Shown here: one piece after another, positions 3,001 through 24,000 of the stretch
Layout of the letters: each line of letters opens with the position of its first letter
Position numbering within the stretch: the first letter of the stretch is position 1
Assembly (NCBI RefSeq): GCF_037042905.1
Contig: NC_087258.1
Coordinates: forward strand, 682,001-746,000
Source of the DNA: Lytechinus pictus
Taxonomy: Eukaryota
Direction: 5' to 3'
DNA length: 64,000 bases
Program-made: the position numbers

Positions 3001-6000
3001 GTTTATTTTTATCTATTTGATTGCACATTGTATGTATATTTACAATATTCTGTGTATATATCCATTGGCAAGTTGACACTTTTCTTGCTCTTGGGGAGGG
3101 GAAATTTGTTTAATAGTGAAACATATTTATCTTAGTTCTCAAAAAGAAAGCTAACGCAAACAAATATTAACAAGCCGAATGTGTTTAAGCATTATTCTGT
3201 GTTTGAATGGTGGACCAATGGTCGTTGATTTAATAGCACATTCGTAGTCATTCATCAATGTCTTCAGAAAAAAAAGATTGATGTTTTTTAATGATTGGCA
3301 TGCGTAATACAGGTAGGAAATTTAAACAATTTACAATTACTTCGCCTTCAGGTTTATTTGATTCATTTAGAGTAGATATGTATTTCTCTGCCCTTTGGTA
3401 AAAACTGACTAATGATAAATACGACTAGTCAAATAGTTCGAAGTTACTTTAAGCACGCTGTTATTATGAATGTTTTTTCATCATGATCAAAAAAAGTCTT
3501 TTGAAATTATTAGAAATTGAAATAAACGAAATGAAATGTTTCAATAGTCCGAATGATTAACTGGCCGAATCTGACCTCTATAATTAACTTAACTTTGGAC
3601 TAAATATTCAAATTGGCTTTTGTAAGCCATTGAGTGTTGATATTGGGTTCGGCATACTGATCCAAGTGTTTCAAACCGTGTCTCTTAAAGAAACCCCCAC
3701 TCGATAAGCATTTAGCTAATTTATAACATTAGATTATAAAAGTATCAAACATTTATATTGTATCTTAATGCAAAACAAAAAATAAATTAAAGGGGAATCT
3801 AACCCAAATAAAAACTTGTTTTTACAGGAAAAAGGGAAATCAAACTAGCTGATAGATGCATTTTGAACAATATCGGACAAAGAACAAGAAAGTTATGATT
3901 TTTTAAAAGTTGTATATATTGTTATACCCATGGAGACTTCAAATTGGTTGCATATTTGATGTCACAGTGATGTACGGCATGGACTACTCTTCCATGTACC
4001 CCAATACATAAAATAGCTAAAAAGTCATTTTCCGAAAAAAAAAAATTCAAAATATATTTGTCTTTCATGAGAACATAAAACAATATACTACCTGGGTTAT
4101 GTTTAGATTACTACCCCAGGGGAATGGTTACTTAGAAGAAAACCACAAATCCCCAACAATTAAATACATGGCCTATAGGAAATTGTCCTTGCCCCTTGTC
4201 ATAATTTCCTTACCCTGTTGCCAATTTGAAATCTACATAATCTTAGTGATCTCAATTTTAAAGCAGCTATAACTTTCTTATTGCTTGTCTGATTTCTTTC
4301 AAACTTTCACCATTCTGTTTAATTTATTTTCCTCCTTTTCAACACAACATTTTATGGCCAAGGCTGGATTCCCTTTTAAAGGCATAAGTAGGAATTCGGT
4401 CAGGAAATCTAGCTAACAGTTCAAAGAACGCGATCAACTGCATGTTGGAAAAGGCGTCTTCGTGTGTCAGGGGTACCATGTCCATTGTCTCTCCGAAAGA
4501 TTATCCCACTGAGGACCCAATTAATTGAAATGATGAATTGAGACATTTCAAAATTGATTCAGAATATTTGTCTCTCTGGATTATCCATTAAGTACTTTTA
4601 AAAGTATTTCACTGTTTTTTTTATCCCAACTAATAGTGAAGTATGCCTGGATCTTCCGGGTCTGAGAACATGATTGCGCCTGGGTTGTATACAACGCTAG
4701 ACTCGACCTGTAGATATGTATTGTGGAAAAAATAGGAAAATAATGAATATTTTTTGTGCATACCAACACAACTACTGTGGTGAATGTTGGGTCCATTTTT
4801 TTCAGGCAAAAGGATTATAAAATATATCGATATTGAAAAAACACGAATGAATTGCCAATAAGGCCTGATAGCATACATTTCTTGCCTTCCATGACGTCAA
4901 TGTCATGAACCAATAGACATAATGAATGTTATTTGGTTAATTCAATATGGGTATCTAATTAAAAATTTCTTAACATTAGACGTCAAGATTTTATTTATAG
5001 TAAAATCATACACATGCTTACTAGGTTTTATGACACAATTAATACCTTTTATACAGTCTCTTGCCGTTTCCTTTTTTTTCTTTACTAGTGATCTTCTGTC
5101 ATATTTATAATTATAAAAGCGTCAGCATGCAATTTGGTTTGACTAGATTTGTGGATGTATCTAGAACTGAAACAAGATTTGCAACTGAGCTTACATTTTC
5201 ACTAGAATCTGATGGATCGAACCTATTGTGATCGCTCCTCCGTCTCTGTTTAGACATGATTACGAAGATGAGAGTGCCACAAGAAGCCAACAACCAGAGT
5301 AGCGATGCTCCTCCTACGCTACTAGCAAATATTACCCACCAAGCTGTCTGGGTCCCTTCATAAATCATGATTTTAAAAGAGAGGGATAATATATGTTATG
5401 TGAAAAGTAGATGGCAAAGGAAGGGCAATGAACAAAGACCTGAAAATGATGGATATACAATGAAAGACGAAAGACAAAGTAGAAGTACTCATTGACTAGG
5501 GGACAATAAACAAGGAGATAAGAGTCCTGATTATACATAAAATTACACTTACTCTCGAGAGAAAACATGGTAAAGGGGCACTCCAAAGGGACTGATCCCT
5601 ATTATAACTCCGTGAGGAGTGTGAATCGGGATGAGGTAAGCTCATTTGCATTTAAAGAGTATATTGCGGGAGATCTTCGTATCAAAAACCATTAAAATAA
5701 TAACATGTAAATAAGTATAAAAAATAATTCATATCGTGTTATCCTGATGTCACTATTGTTTCCTCTCATTAAAAAAATAAATACATGCCAGGTCATTCCA
5801 AAGCTTTCATGATTGTGGTGGTGTATTTGCGAACTTGGCAATTCCCCAATTTTGGAATACTTCATTTTGGTTCAATGCCAATAAATGATGGGTTAAAGGT
5901 CATAATTATGTTGGGCCTTATGAAACTCTACCAGATTTATATACCTCTTTCTTCAGTAGTCTCTTGTTGATCAACTGTAACAATTTTTGTTTTAGTTAAC

Positions 6001-21000: not shown

Positions 21001-24000
21001 CCGCGACTTTAAACCTGAGTTTAAGTTAAACCCGAATTCAGAATACAGGCCAGAGATTTTAACTAAATCGGATAGGGACCCCCCCCCCCCCCCTTCCTCC
21101 AAAAAAGTGTAAAAAAAAAAAAAAAAAAAATCAGGGGCCCGTTTCATAAAGAGTTACAACTGTTGTAACTTTGCCATTATGGCAACTACCATTGGAAACC
21201 TTGATTCTGATTGGCTGATGAGCCCTGTTATCATAATAGTCCTATATGAAAGGGCCCCAGGTCGACTAATAAATCTCAAACTACCATTTTGTGAGTACCG
21301 TATACTGTGACATCCGGGTAACATCCAGTCCAGTCCCAACCAAATAAGCCAGTTCGCTATAGAAGAAGTTCGGCTCTTTATGTTTGGAATTATTATATTG
21401 GCACTTTGAACTGCCATTAGTATAAAATAGAACATATATTTTTTATTGAAATTGAAATGTTGTTTTATTTTGTATTTAGCTTATGTTATACTAGGTGTCT
21501 TGCGTTGATATTCGAAAGGCAAACAAACCTTTTTTTTATTATTGTACAAAAAAATACGTGTGATTGTGTTCTTATATCCGCTTTATATATATGCTTTCTT
21601 TGTACCTTCGCACGTTGGAAACTCTAGACCAACCCATGCTCCATCATTACAAGTGGGATTCGGCGTAGAGCTCAGTACTCGCCATGTAGTAGTACAAGAA
21701 AAAGCCAATGTGGTTCCGTGATCATACTGATCTTTGCTTTCTCCAGATGATGCATCTCCATGTGTTAGATAGGCTGGAACTCCTGGGGCAGAACAGGGGG
21801 CTGAAAAAGGGAACATAACATAATTATAGATGTCCTAAGTAATGGAACATGGCATGACTAAGAAACCACATACGACATAACCAAAGTTTATACAGATTAT
21901 GACTAACTTTCGTGATCAGAGATAATATAATACAGTGCACTATTCACTTGAAATATCTGTTTTGAATATAAAAAATATCACAAAGTTCAGTTTTTCAAAA
22001 GAATTACCACTATTCAATGTTAAATGACAAGTTCACCCCCCAAAAAAAAACATCATAGTGTGTATACAAATGAGGGGATTGATGACATCACCCACTCACT
22101 ATTTAGTTTGTATCTTATAATATGAAAAATGGAATGTTCCATTTTTCTCCTCATTAAGGGAAGTTCTATTCCTCCCTGAGCATGTGGAATTTTATGTTAC
22201 CATTTCATGGTTCAGTCAAGTTAGTCCTTAAGTATTGTAAAATTTGTAAAATCTTGAATATAGTATAATTGCATCTATAAAAAAGATATAAGGAGTAAGC
22301 GAAATCATCGACTTACATTTGCATGTCATTGAATTGTGCATACAACTACTTTGTGAAATATAAGTGAAAGTTTAAAATGTCATAACTTCCTAATTTAACA
22401 TCTGATTTTGATTGAATTTTCAGCGTTATGCTTGTTGCAATTTTCTCTATTGATTCAAATCAATATTTTTCTGGCCTCGGAGTGGACTTGACATTTAAGA
22501 AGCTTACTTAACCCTTGTTCATTACTACCGTCACTACTGACAATCCTTCTAATGTGTTGCGTCATCTTACCGTAACACGCGTTTGCAGAGAAATCTGGTA
22601 CCCATCCAAATTCTGTACACTGAGAGAATATTTCCCCAGAGAAGACATATGGAGGGGGTGGACAGTATAGGATGATGAAGTCATTTACGTCATATCGGTC
22701 CTTCCTCACACTTGGGTAAATGTCAGGGTCGAGCTCGACTGGCATTATGCAACCTAGGAATAAAAAGGGTATTTGCAACAGTCTTAATACAATTAAAACC
22801 AAATTATGTAAGAAACAAACCTCATTAATCACAGATGTACCAGTAATTAATATGGTGCAAGGTTTACAGTGTAAATGGTTTCATCTGCTCAAAATATCTG
22901 AAGACTTCATGTGATTGTACTTATTAAATTTAGTTGATTTTAATAATTATTCGCAGGGAGGACCGAATTAAATATTAATCAAATTAATTGCTGAAAAAAG
23001 CACGAAAAGGGAAACAAAGAAATCTATTAGATCACTAGGTCGGGCCAAGCATTTGATACAGTAGGAGCGTGGCTTTATAAAACCAAAAGTGTTCGCTTTG
23101 CTATTCAAAATACCATGGTAACGGGACTCAGCACCCAATCAAGATTTCCAGTTTTCACTCGTAATAAAACGGACCGTTATTTCTTCCAAGATATTGTAAA
23201 TGATATGAAAGTTTTCAAACAATGACTGTAAAACTGTCGTATCATACGAAGCTTATCATAATATACGAATGATACGAATGGTAACGATATCATTTTTTTT
23301 TCTTCTTCTCTTTTACCTTATTGAAACATCTTCTCATAATAAATTAACTTACCAACAAGGGCTGTTGTATGTTTTATGGTCGTTATAACAGGTTCAATAT
23401 TCTGATCGGTGGTCAACAGGACATCAGTGGTCATATTGGTTGTACGACTCGTGGCTGGTGCGGTCGATTGTCCATCGATTGTAGCAAGTAGTGCGTCATT
23501 GGTTGTTGATGTGTCTGTTGTCCCCGCTGTATTCTGTGTCGTTTGATCACTCAGTTTGTGAGTTGTTAACTGACTATTTTCATCAGTTGTCTTGGTTGTT
23601 TTAAAAGAGGATTCATCTGTTGTGATTTTAGGCGTTCCATCAGTTGTGAGAAAAGTGATAATATCAGTCAGTTTGTCAATGGTACTTTGAGTTATTTTGT
23701 CAGCTGTAGCCTGAATCAGTTCATCAGTCATAATTTGAGTCGTCCCGTCAATTGTAACATGAGTCATTCCATCAGACATTTTCTGAGTCGGTTCTTGGGT
23801 ACTGATTTGAGCCGTTTCATCAGTCGTGATATGAGTTGTTCCACTAGTTAGTTTGCTATTTGTACTCTCAGTCGTTTGATCGCTCGTGATCCGAGTCGAT
23901 TGATCAGTTGTCAGTTGTATACTTGTATCAGTTTCATCCGTCGTAATTTCAAACACTCCAGTAGTTGTAATCTTAGTCGTGTCCTTGGTATTGAATGTAG

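What the first reader, a model, noticed from the sequence alone, without database searches (positions are those of the whole stretch)
5945..22753. Gene A is built by duplication of an 8-exon cassette (4 CCP + linker + 2 CCP + mucin)
Exon order and sizes repeat: 183/195/189/189/87/195/201 nt + mucin, then 189/195/189/189/90/195/201 nt + mucin, with positional paralogy, while introns and mucin exons show no evident similarity. The protein is a beads-on-a-rod structure with two six-CCP blocks between three mucin rods, and a mucin domain rather than a globular domain at the distal tip, which is unusual.
Basis: seen in the sequence. Interest (0 to 1): 0.65.

Follow-up and report, generated by a model that had tools for sequence, protein, structure and literature searches.

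The report
Duplicated CCP–mucin cassette in urchin gene
A sea urchin gene for a long, sugar-coated cell-surface protein really does contain an old internal duplication of a block of seven small exons plus a mucin exon, a familiar way for such genes to grow, and one exon pair has since been kept almost identical.

Summary
All have AG/GT borders and phase 1-1, and each series is followed by a Ser/Thr-rich exon.

Only exons match between the two cassettes, and they match in order. Each CCP's best partner is its positional twin in 6 of 6 cases. Introns and mucin exons show no similarity.

The window is Lytechinus pictus, not human. The gene is RefSeq "mucin-3A-like". L. variegatus and S. purpuratus proteins also carry both cassettes, so the duplication is old, and synonymous sites are saturated.

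- The six CCPs alternate between two types (I-II)x3.
- Exon e is 96% identical between cassettes (pS 0.13 against at least 0.69), which points to gene conversion. In S. purpuratus it is exon f that is homogenised.
- The linker carries an invariant motif.

The architecture parallels the long homologous repeats of CR1. It is a new member of a known kind, of modest interest.

The parts
26885..26975 (-). First coding exon: Met plus a hydrophobic signal-like peptide (31 aa), with a donor in phase 1
   Evidence: Found in the ATG, hydrophobic-stretch and phase-1 donor scan. 100% identical to residues 1-31 of the L. pictus RefSeq protein P0005. No signal-peptide predictor was run.
23353..26517 (-). 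N-terminal mucin-like exon (mucN): 3165 nt, 1054 aa, S+T 39%, Pro 2%, no Cys. It holds a 324-nt x3.0 tandem repeat (91% matches) built of 24-nt sub-repeats
   Evidence: matches P0005; no Pfam family.
22571..22753 (-). Exon 1a, type I CCP, 183 nt
   Evidence: AG/GT, phase 1-1; 65% aa identity to 2a.
21606..21800 (-). Exon 1b, type II CCP, 195 nt
   Evidence: 52% aa identity to 2b.
18502..18690 (-). Exon 1c, type I CCP, 189 nt
   Evidence: 74% aa identity to 2c.
17846..18034 (-). Exon 1d, type II CCP, 189 nt. It is absent from the L. pictus RefSeq model but present in both L. variegatus models
   Evidence: Pfam Sushi 25.6 bits, above the cut-off of 20.7. 90-92% identical to L. variegatus.
16916..17002 (-). 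Linker exon 1L, 87 nt: a Ser/Thr-rich half, then the invariant motif ...FTQEYFTLPPDG
16375..16569 (-). Exon 1e, type I CCP, 195 nt. It is 96.4% nt and 96.9% aa identical to 2e
15448..15648 (-). Exon 1f, type II CCP, 201 nt
   Evidence: 42% aa identity to 2f.
13120..14625 (-). Middle mucin-like exon (mucM): 1506 nt, 501 aa, S+T 37.5%, with a 255-nt x3.4 tandem repeat (73% matches)
   Evidence: 100% identical to P0005 residues 1436-1937.
12619..12807 (-). Exon 2a, type I CCP, 189 nt
12306..12500 (-). Exon 2b, type II CCP, 195 nt
   Evidence: Pfam Sushi 18.5 bits, below the cut-off.
11692..11880 (-). Exon 2c, type I CCP, 189 nt. It is absent from the L. pictus RefSeq model but present in L. variegatus P0004 (95% identity)
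10825..11013 (-). Exon 2d, type II CCP, 189 nt
   Evidence: Pfam Sushi 19.6 bits, below the cut-off.
10220..10309 (-). Linker exon 2L, 90 nt
8583..8777 (-). Exon 2e, type I CCP, 195 nt, the near-identical twin of 1e
7505..7705 (-). Exon 2f, type II CCP, 201 nt
5945..6988 (-). Membrane-proximal mucin-like exon (mucC): 1044 nt, 347 aa, S+T 37.5%, no tandem repeat found
   Evidence: 83% identical to L. variegatus P0002 and P0004.
5195..5355 (-). Transmembrane exon, 161 nt, phase 1 to 0: a hydrophobic stretch followed by basic residues
   Evidence: 89-93% identical to the L. variegatus models. The TM segment was read by eye; no predictor was run.
4630..4707 (-). Last coding exon: 25 aa of cytoplasmic tail (...YNPGAIMFSDPEDPGILHY) plus the stop codon
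   Evidence: the tail is conserved in the L. variegatus and S. purpuratus-like proteins.

Best explanation
Gene A (minus strand, about 26975 to 4630) is the Lytechinus pictus gene that RefSeq calls 'mucin-3A-like'. It encodes a type I membrane glycoprotein of about 2,843 aa. That length is arithmetic from the exon sizes; I made no joined sequence.

The layout is: signal peptide, a long acidic Ser/Thr-rich rod, [4 CCP - 28-aa linker - 2 CCP], a second rod, [4 CCP - 29-aa linker - 2 CCP], a third rod, a TM helix and a short conserved tail.

Shown here:
- The two CCP blocks are tandem paralogues, exon for exon.
- Every exon from the first mucin to the last is symmetric phase 1-1, so any unequal exchange in introns, or any exon skipping, keeps the reading frame.
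- The six CCPs are themselves three dyads of two CCP types (I-II)x3.
- The duplication is old. Synonymous sites are saturated in 6 of 7 exon pairs, and both cassettes are present in L. variegatus and S. purpuratus proteins.

Inferred:
- The cassette arose by unequal crossing-over between phase-1 introns, or within mucin sequence.
- Mucin exons then diverged beyond recognition through repeat turnover.
- Exon e, together with the invariant linker motif in front of it, is the most constrained unit, and in Lytechinus it is also homogenised by exon-limited gene conversion. In S. purpuratus the homogenised stretch is f plus the start of the mucin.
- Function (inference only): a glycocalyx protein that holds CCP binding modules at two heights above the membrane. 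The duplication lengthened the molecule and doubled its conserved linker-e site, as the long homologous repeats did for CR1.
For: Exon sizes, splice sites and phases come. Collinear exon-only similarity is shown. The positional partner is the reciprocal best match in 6 of 6 cases.

In the tree the type I / type II split has support 99/97. The clades are a 100/99, b 99/96, d 100/98 and e 92/87, and the S. purpuratus 'a' groups with the Lytechinus 2a copies at 98/95.

pS is 0.69-0.84 for pairs a, b, c, d, L and f, but 0.13 for e (5.0 of 38.7 synonymous sites). The high-identity zone ends 20 nt before and 5 nt after exon e.

The window's 1e groups with the 2e-type copies (86/89) and not with L. 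variegatus 1e. In S. purpuratus f1/f2 are 95.4% identical, e1/e2 87.5%, and the mucins after f 54% (E 3e-60). In L. variegatus 1f/2f are 44.6% and 1e/2e 93.8% identical.

On identity of the gene: P0005 (L. pictus mucin-3A-like) matches the window exons at 97-100%. P0004 (L. variegatus, 2804 aa) carries both cassettes, mucC and the TM segment.

On CCP nature: all 12 modules have four Cys and the Trp in consensus spacing. The type I profile hits CR1 at 5.5e-15 and factor H at 3.5e-9. The type II profile hits factor H at 5e-34. For exon e, 22 of 30 ESM Atlas neighbours belong to the set of clusters that list Sushi on part of their members.

The linker motif is the same in 7 of 7 copies from three species.
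Against: - No transcript data were available, so the 20-exon model rests on splice signals, open frames and predicted RefSeq proteins that disagree with one another. The L. pictus model omits 1d and 2c and ends after 2f in a 19-aa tail. The L. variegatus model truncates 1b and runs on into the next gene.
- Positions c and f are not clades in either tree.
- In the d clade the S. purpuratus copy falls outside Lytechinus 1d+2d (92/88). That does not fit a duplication before the species split unless 1d evolved fast.
- Exon e is also the module best conserved between species (92-95% aa between window and S. purpuratus). Purifying selection therefore explains part of its identity.
- The intronic extension of the e match is a pyrimidine tract with about 15 of 19 matches, which is weak.
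- Pfam Sushi reaches its cut-off on only 1 of 12 modules. The AlphaFold model of 1e is poor (pLDDT 55.6), and Foldseek gave 0 matches at E <= 0.001.
- Nothing here tests function.
Confidence: 0.8

Rival explanations
1. The near-identity of exons 1e and 2e comes from purifying selection alone, on the protein and perhaps on splicing signals, without gene conversion.
For: Exon e is the most conserved module between species: 92-95% aa between the window and S. purpuratus, against 67-75% for a, c, d and f. The neighbouring linker motif is invariant although its synonymous sites are saturated (pS 0.73), so strong protein-level constraint does act here.
Against: Selection on the protein does not explain pS 0.13 against at least 0.69 in the other six pairs. 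It also does not explain why the window's 1e carries the 2e-type residues where L. variegatus 1e and S. purpuratus e1 share another set. Nor does it explain why S. purpuratus has f as its 95% identical pair while e is 87.5%.
Confidence: 0.15
2. The repeated unit is not 'a-f plus the following mucin'. It is 'mucin plus the following a-f', or an exchange with breakpoints inside repetitive mucin exons. On this view the 8-exon register proposed by the reader is arbitrary.
For: The three mucin exons of the window share nothing above shuffled controls, so none can be paired with another. Mucin exons hold internal tandem repeats that favour out-of-register exchange. An unnamed relative (P0006) has a-b-c-d flanked by mucin on both sides and no linker-e-f, so block borders vary within the family.
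Against: In S. purpuratus the two mucins that follow f are 54% identical from their first residues. That fits f and the mucin travelling together, although it may reflect a later conversion.
Confidence: 0.35
3. The two cassettes belong to two adjacent genes rather than to one.
For: No transcript evidence was available. The RefSeq models differ at both ends, and a separate single-cassette model exists in L. variegatus (P0002).
Against: There is no stop codon, signal-peptide exon or TM exon between the cassettes. All junctions are phase-compatible, and the summed coding length is a multiple of three. Two independent RefSeq models, from L. pictus and L. variegatus, span both cassettes.
Confidence: 0.05
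4. The duplication is an assembly artefact, such as a haplotig placed in tandem.
For: Sea urchin assemblies are prone to uncollapsed haplotypes (my own knowledge). The window contains four N runs, none of them inside gene A.
Against: The copies are 42-74% identical in protein with saturated synonymous sites, exon e excepted. That is far beyond allelic divergence. The same two diverged cassettes occur in two other species.
Confidence: 0.02

Closest known systems
Complement receptor 1 (CR1/CD35) long homologous repeats
   Same: CR1 is a type I membrane protein in which a multi-CCP unit is repeated in tandem by unequal crossing-over, and LHR gain or loss produces size variants (passage read in PMC4842007). 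That its repeats show positional paralogy with stretches of near-identity is recalled from my own knowledge.
   Different: The CR1 unit is seven CCPs with no mucin spacers, and it binds C3b/C4b (recalled). Here the unit is six CCPs of two alternating types, plus a linker exon and a mucin exon. The copies are far more diverged (42-74%), exon e excepted. No complement link was tested.
CD46 (MCP) and CD55 (DAF)
   Same: Both have CCP modules carried on a Ser/Thr/Pro-rich O-glycosylated stalk attached to the membrane (recalled). CD46 appears as a weak hit of the type I profile (8cjv, E 0.42).
   Different: They have four CCPs at the distal tip and one short stalk. Gene A has a 1054-aa mucin at the tip, three rods and twelve CCPs, and its rods are Pro-poor (2-6%) and acidic.
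Membrane mucins MUC3A/MUC12/MUC17 (the source of the RefSeq name)
   Same: They are type I membrane proteins with very long Ser/Thr-rich tandem-repeat domains at the distal end.
   Different: No SEA or EGF module, nor any other Pfam family, was found in the mucin or TM exons. Those mucins have no CCP modules (recalled). The RefSeq name reflects composition only.
Sea urchin SCR mosaic proteins SpCRL and SpCRS
   Same: These are echinoid proteins that combine short consensus repeats with a Ser/Thr/Pro-rich region. This is recalled from memory. The term SpCRL appeared only in a search listing, and I read no paper on it.
   Different: As recalled, they also carry FIMAC and other modules and are not described as TM proteins with repeated CCP-mucin cassettes. 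I made no sequence comparison.

Membership tests
CCP / Sushi / SCR module (Pfam PF00084) | A module of about 60 residues with four Cys in consensus spacing, Pro after Cys1 and a Trp between Cys3 and Cys4 | tested here: met
   All 12 of 12 modules have the four Cys and the Trp. These columns are invariant in the type I and type II alignments, and the type I columns are also invariant in the CCP of the neighbouring gene. The Pro after Cys1 is invariant only in the type I alignment; among the type II modules, 1d lacks it.
CCP / Sushi / SCR module (Pfam PF00084) | Score above the Pfam gathering cut-off (20.7 bits) | tested here: inconclusive
   One of 12 modules is above the cut-off (1d, 25.6 bits). 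Three are below it (2d 19.6, 2b 18.5, 2a 14.0). Eight have no Sushi match even at E <= 10.
CCP / Sushi / SCR module (Pfam PF00084) | Profile-level similarity to solved CCP modules | tested here: met
   The type I profile hits CR1 at 5.5e-15, factor H at 3.5e-9 and CR2 at 4.6e-8. The type II profile hits factor H at 5e-34 and CR2 at 3.3e-19. For exon e, 22 of 30 ESM Atlas neighbours belong to the set of clusters that list Sushi on part of their members (15-74% in the rows shown).
CCP / Sushi / SCR module (Pfam PF00084) | CCP beta-sandwich fold with 1-3 and 2-4 disulfides | tested here: inconclusive
   The AlphaFold2 model of 1e, built from a 7-row alignment, has pLDDT 55.6. Foldseek against the PDB gave 0 of 146 listed matches at E <= 0.001. 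The top hit was factor H CCP1-4 at E 1.8. Disulfides cannot be tested with these tools.
Tandem multi-CCP repeat units made by unequal crossing-over (CR1 LHR type) | A unit of several CCP exons repeated head to tail, with module-for-module correspondence | tested here: met
   Seven of 7 exon pairs are collinear. The positional partner is the reciprocal best match in 6 of 6 cases. Clades form for a, b, d and e, and c and f are not rejected.
Tandem multi-CCP repeat units made by unequal crossing-over (CR1 LHR type) | Variation in repeat number between alleles or loci | tested here: inconclusive
   L. variegatus has a 2804-aa two-cassette protein and, on a contig of the same length, a separate 841-aa single-cassette model that joins cassette-1 a-e to cassette-2 f. 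Whether this is a second locus, a haplotig, a deletion or a model artefact could not be told without DNA.
Regulators of complement activation (functional family) | Binding of C3b/C4b, with decay-accelerating or cofactor activity | not testable with these tools
The motif scheme of PMC6683126 was seen only in a search listing and was not applied.
Membrane mucins of the MUC3A/12/17 type | SEA and EGF modules between the mucin domain and the TM segment | tested here: not met
   Pfam finds no family in mucN, mucM, mucC, the TM exon or the last exon at E <= 0.01.
Membrane mucins of the MUC3A/12/17 type | A long Pro/Thr/Ser tandem-repeat domain | tested here: inconclusive
   S+T is 37-39% with no Cys, and tandem repeats are present in mucN and mucM. 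However, Pro is only 2-6% and D+E is 13-14%. Glycosylation is not testable.

The most novel reading that the evidence does not exclude
The near-identical e exons act as a recombination hot spot that changes cassette number within species, as with the CR1 size alleles. On this reading the single-cassette L. variegatus protein (cassette-1 a-e joined to cassette-2 f, mucC and TM) is the product of such an exchange. The invariant linker-e unit would be the ligand-binding site of an echinoid-specific family of membrane CCP-mucins that act as self-surface markers or complement regulators.
Probability: 0.15. Interest if true: 0.5.

Novelty: new member of a known kind. Interest (0 to 1): 0.3.

Why it matters
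This is a clean, fully resolved example of module-by-module gene growth outside the vertebrates. It shows symmetric phase-1 exons, a hierarchical duplication (dyad, then triple dyad, then cassette), mucin spacers that lose all similarity, and exon-limited concerted evolution that picks different exons in different urchin lineages.

It also gives annotators a corrected exon model for a gene whose RefSeq versions disagree. And it points to the linker-e unit as the place to look for a function. It does not change how CCP proteins or mucins are understood.

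Tried and rejected
- Pfam on single exons: it recognises Sushi above its cut-off in only 1 of 12 modules, so it was not decisive. Profiles against PDB sequences settled the CCP nature.
- AlphaFold2 of exon 1e with a 7-row alignment gave pLDDT 55.6, and Foldseek gave nothing significant. I treat both as uninformative.
- First tree with 29 rows, including CCPs of the neighbouring genes: long branches disturbed it, and d and c were unresolved. I replaced it with the 41-row tree without those rows.
- Word-based homologue searches with exon 1e and exon 1a found 3 and 1 proteins. The search with exon 1a added nothing new.
- The whole-library search found only 157 proteins at E <= 0.001 and 7 at E <= 1e-30. 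P0008 is a generic array of one CCP type and was set aside.
- Literature: searches for sea urchin + sushi + mucin + transmembrane (15 papers hold all four terms, 11 listed, none on this gene), Paracentrotus tube feet + sushi + mucin (0), sea urchin SCR/SpCRL (22 papers hold at least 3 of the 4 terms, 10 listed, none on this gene) and L. pictus + genome + mucin (9 papers hold all three terms, 7 listed). In the L. pictus in situ paper the passages I read concern mucin-2 and mucin-17 only.
- Assembly artefact and the two-gene reading were rejected, as set out under the rival explanations.
- Genome contigs holds only bacteria and archaea, so I did not use it. No echinoid DNA other than the window could be compared.

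Full report
**What the contig is.** The window is 35% G+C and has four N runs, none of them in the region of the finding. I left those runs alone. Exon-by-exon searches show it is sea urchin, not human.

- Exon 1e finds S. purpuratus 'mucin-5AC-like' (P0001) and an L. variegatus protein (P0002).
- A search with P0002 finds L. pictus 'mucin-3A-like' (P0005, 2309 aa). Its residues match the window's exons at 97-100%, including 502 of 502 residues of the middle mucin exon.
- The window is therefore L. pictus, and gene A is an annotated but computationally predicted RefSeq gene.
I made and searched no joined coding sequence. Whole-protein queries used the database protein P0002 only.

**The observation.** Gene A runs on the minus strand.

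- All twelve CCP exons and both linker exons have AG acceptors and GT donors and are phase 1-1.
- The mucin exons that follow are 1506 nt (13120-14625) and 1044 nt (5945-6988). A 3165-nt mucin exon (23353-26517) precedes cassette 1.
- Every exon from the first mucin to the last is a multiple of three.
- A 91-nt first exon (26885-26975) encodes Met plus a hydrophobic stretch and is identical to the start of P0005.
- A 161-nt TM exon (5195-5355) and a 78-nt last exon (4630-4707) match the C-termini of the L. variegatus proteins.
- The exon sizes sum to 8532 nt, that is 2843 codons plus a stop.

**Is it more than chance?** A sensitive blastn of cassette 1 against cassette 2 returned 12 HSPs.

- Seven are the collinear exon pairs: a 67%, b 58%, c 72%, d 61%, linker 76%, e 95% and f 63%.
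- Two are a/c cross matches.
- Three are short intronic matches with E 0.002-0.58.
- In a 6x6 protein identity matrix the positional partner is the best match in 6 of 6 rows and 6 of 6 columns: 65, 52, 74, 48, 97 and 42%.
- A home-made HMM run over all six frames found no further CCP relic inside the gene.
- Intron lengths differ freely. For example, the a-b intron is 770 nt in cassette 1 and 118 nt in cassette 2.
- The three mucin exons are alike in composition (S+T 37-39%, no Cys, Pro 2-6%, D+E 13-14%) but not in sequence. Best scores of 15.0-16.2 bits equal the shuffled means of 15.7-16.4.

**Are they CCPs?** Pfam is weak here. Only 1d passes the Sushi cut-off, 2b, 2d and 2a fall below it, and eight modules give no Sushi match.

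- All 12 modules keep the four Cys and the Trp.
- Profiles of the two module types hit solved CCP proteins. Type I hits CR1 at 5.5e-15 and factor H at 3.5e-9. Type II hits factor H at 5e-34.
- For exon e, 22 of 30 ESM Atlas neighbours belong to the set of clusters that list Sushi on part of their members.
- A structure prediction of 1e was poor (pLDDT 55.6) and its fold search was empty of significant hits. The fold therefore rests on sequence profiles.

**Trees.** I built two trees.

- The first had 29 rows. It used four of the six CCP-like pieces of the neighbouring genes and left out the two partial pieces near 53.3 and 54.0 kb. It supported clades for a, b and e but was disturbed by long branches.
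- The second had 41 rows: the 12 window modules, 11 from P0004, 5 from P0002, 7 from P0001, 4 from the unnamed P0006 and 2 from the unnamed P0007.
- Left out of the second tree were the neighbouring genes' CCPs, the truncated 'a' of P0002, the truncated 1b of P0004, and P0008 and P0009.
- It splits type I (a, c, e) from type II (b, d, f) at 99/97. The clades are a (100/99), b (99/96), d (100/98) and e (92/87).
- Positions c and f are not clades, but holding them together is not rejected (AU p 0.176 and 0.245).
The tree adds a deeper layer: the six-CCP block is three I-II dyads.

**Age.**

- Synonymous differences are saturated (pS 0.69-0.84) in pairs a, b, c, d, linker and f.
- L. variegatus P0004 has both cassettes with the same pairwise identities (a 63%, c 73%, d 51%, f 45%, e 94%).
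- S. purpuratus P0001 reads linker-e-f-mucin-a-c-d-linker-e-f-mucin. Its 'a' groups with the Lytechinus 2a copies at 98/95.
- The duplication therefore predates the split of these genera. The date of that split, tens of millions of years ago, is recalled and not tested.
- Against this, the S. purpuratus 'd' falls outside Lytechinus 1d+2d (92/88). Either 1d evolved fast or the history of d differs.

**The e exon.**

- 1e and 2e differ at 7 of 195 nucleotides and 2 of 64 residues, with pS 0.13.
- The high-identity zone is the exon plus about 20 nt of upstream pyrimidine tract (roughly 15 of 19 matching) and 5 nt after the donor. Beyond that the introns are unrelated.
- The window's 1e carries the residues of the 2e type where L. 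variegatus 1e and S. purpuratus e1 share another set, and it groups with 2e copies (86/89).
- In S. purpuratus the pattern moves: f1/f2 are 95.4% identical, the mucins after them 54% (E 3e-60), and e1/e2 87.5%.
- Different exons homogenised in different lineages is the signature of gene conversion, not of site-specific selection.
- Exon e is also the module best conserved between species, so both forces act.
- The linker's second half (...FTQEYFTLPPDG) is the same in 7 of 7 copies from three species, although its synonymous sites are saturated. It is therefore under protein-level constraint and probably forms one functional unit with e.

**Annotation disagreements.**

- The L. pictus RefSeq protein lacks 1d and 2c and ends after 2f with 19 residues from an ORF at 7270-7437, so it has no mucC and no TM segment.
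- L. variegatus P0004 has 1d, 2c, mucC and the TM segment, but it truncates 1b and continues into the next gene's CCP and mucin.
- L. variegatus P0002 starts inside 'a' and joins cassette-1 a-e to cassette-2 f, mucC and the TM segment.
- Because all these exons are phase 1-1, each variant is in frame. Whether they are isoforms, a deletion locus or model errors cannot be told here.

**What it most likely is and does.** The protein is a type I membrane glycoprotein with three mucin-like rods and two six-CCP blocks. It has no SEA, EGF or other Pfam module, so the 'mucin-3A-like' name reflects composition only.

- The closest analogue for the gene's mode of growth is CR1, whose size variants differ by whole long homologous repeats through unequal crossing-over (passage in PMC4842007).
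- The closest analogues for the layout are CD46 and CD55 (recalled).
- Function is inferred only: a glycocalyx protein presenting CCP binding modules, with the linker-e unit as the likely binding site.
- My four searches found nothing in print on this gene. Supplements were closed and were not needed.

**What stayed unchecked.**

- No echinoid genome DNA other than the window could be searched.
- I had no transcript evidence.

**Verdict.** This is a new member of a known kind, of modest interest.

Noticed in passing
window 253-2229, minus strand: Just downstream of gene A's stop there is another type I-like CCP exon (about 2026-2199) and a 435-aa Ser/Thr-rich ORF (253-1560). This looks like the start of a further CCP-mucin gene. 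The L. variegatus model P0004 fuses the orthologous pieces to gene A's cytoplasmic tail, which is probably a read-through model.
   Followed up: partly
window 41294-54068, minus strand: A third gene of the same kind (gene B). CCP-like exons lie at about 53934-54068, 53262-53378 (abutting an N run), 50134-50316, 49609-49779 and 48746-48889. They are followed by mucin-like ORFs of 996 aa (45505-48495) and 413 aa (41294-42535). The window is thus a tandem cluster of CCP-mucin genes, all on one strand.
   Followed up: partly
window 7270-7437, minus strand (intron between 2f and mucC): The L. pictus RefSeq protein ends here with 19 residues and a stop, in place of mucC and the TM segment. If this is real, it is an alternative last exon that would give a secreted form.
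   Followed up: no
L. variegatus proteins P0002 and P0004 (not in the window): The two listings give the same longest-contig length, which suggests that both proteins lie on one contig; that is my inference, not a tool result. One protein has two cassettes (2804 aa) and one has a single cassette (841 aa). Their shared modules are identical or differ by a few residues. They could be a second locus, an uncollapsed haplotype or a deletion between the e exons.
   Followed up: partly
window 7431-7492, 17455-17760, 20866-21153 and 16290-16310: Introns hold runs of G (or C) next to runs of A (or T), and these give weak cross matches between unrelated introns. They may be copies of a short interspersed repeat.
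   Followed up: no
unnamed relative P0006 (not in the window): A 450-aa protein of unknown species reads: end of a type II CCP, about 95 aa of mucin, a-b-c-d, then mucin, with no linker-e-f. This suggests that the four-CCP and two-CCP sub-blocks are separable units and that the 28-aa linker is a shrunken spacer.
   Followed up: partly
window 56823-57812: Long runs of Thr/Ser-like or Leu/Val-like codons, depending on the frame, flank the N runs at 56494-56676 and 56911-57321. This is simple-sequence DNA, not obviously coding.
   Followed up: no
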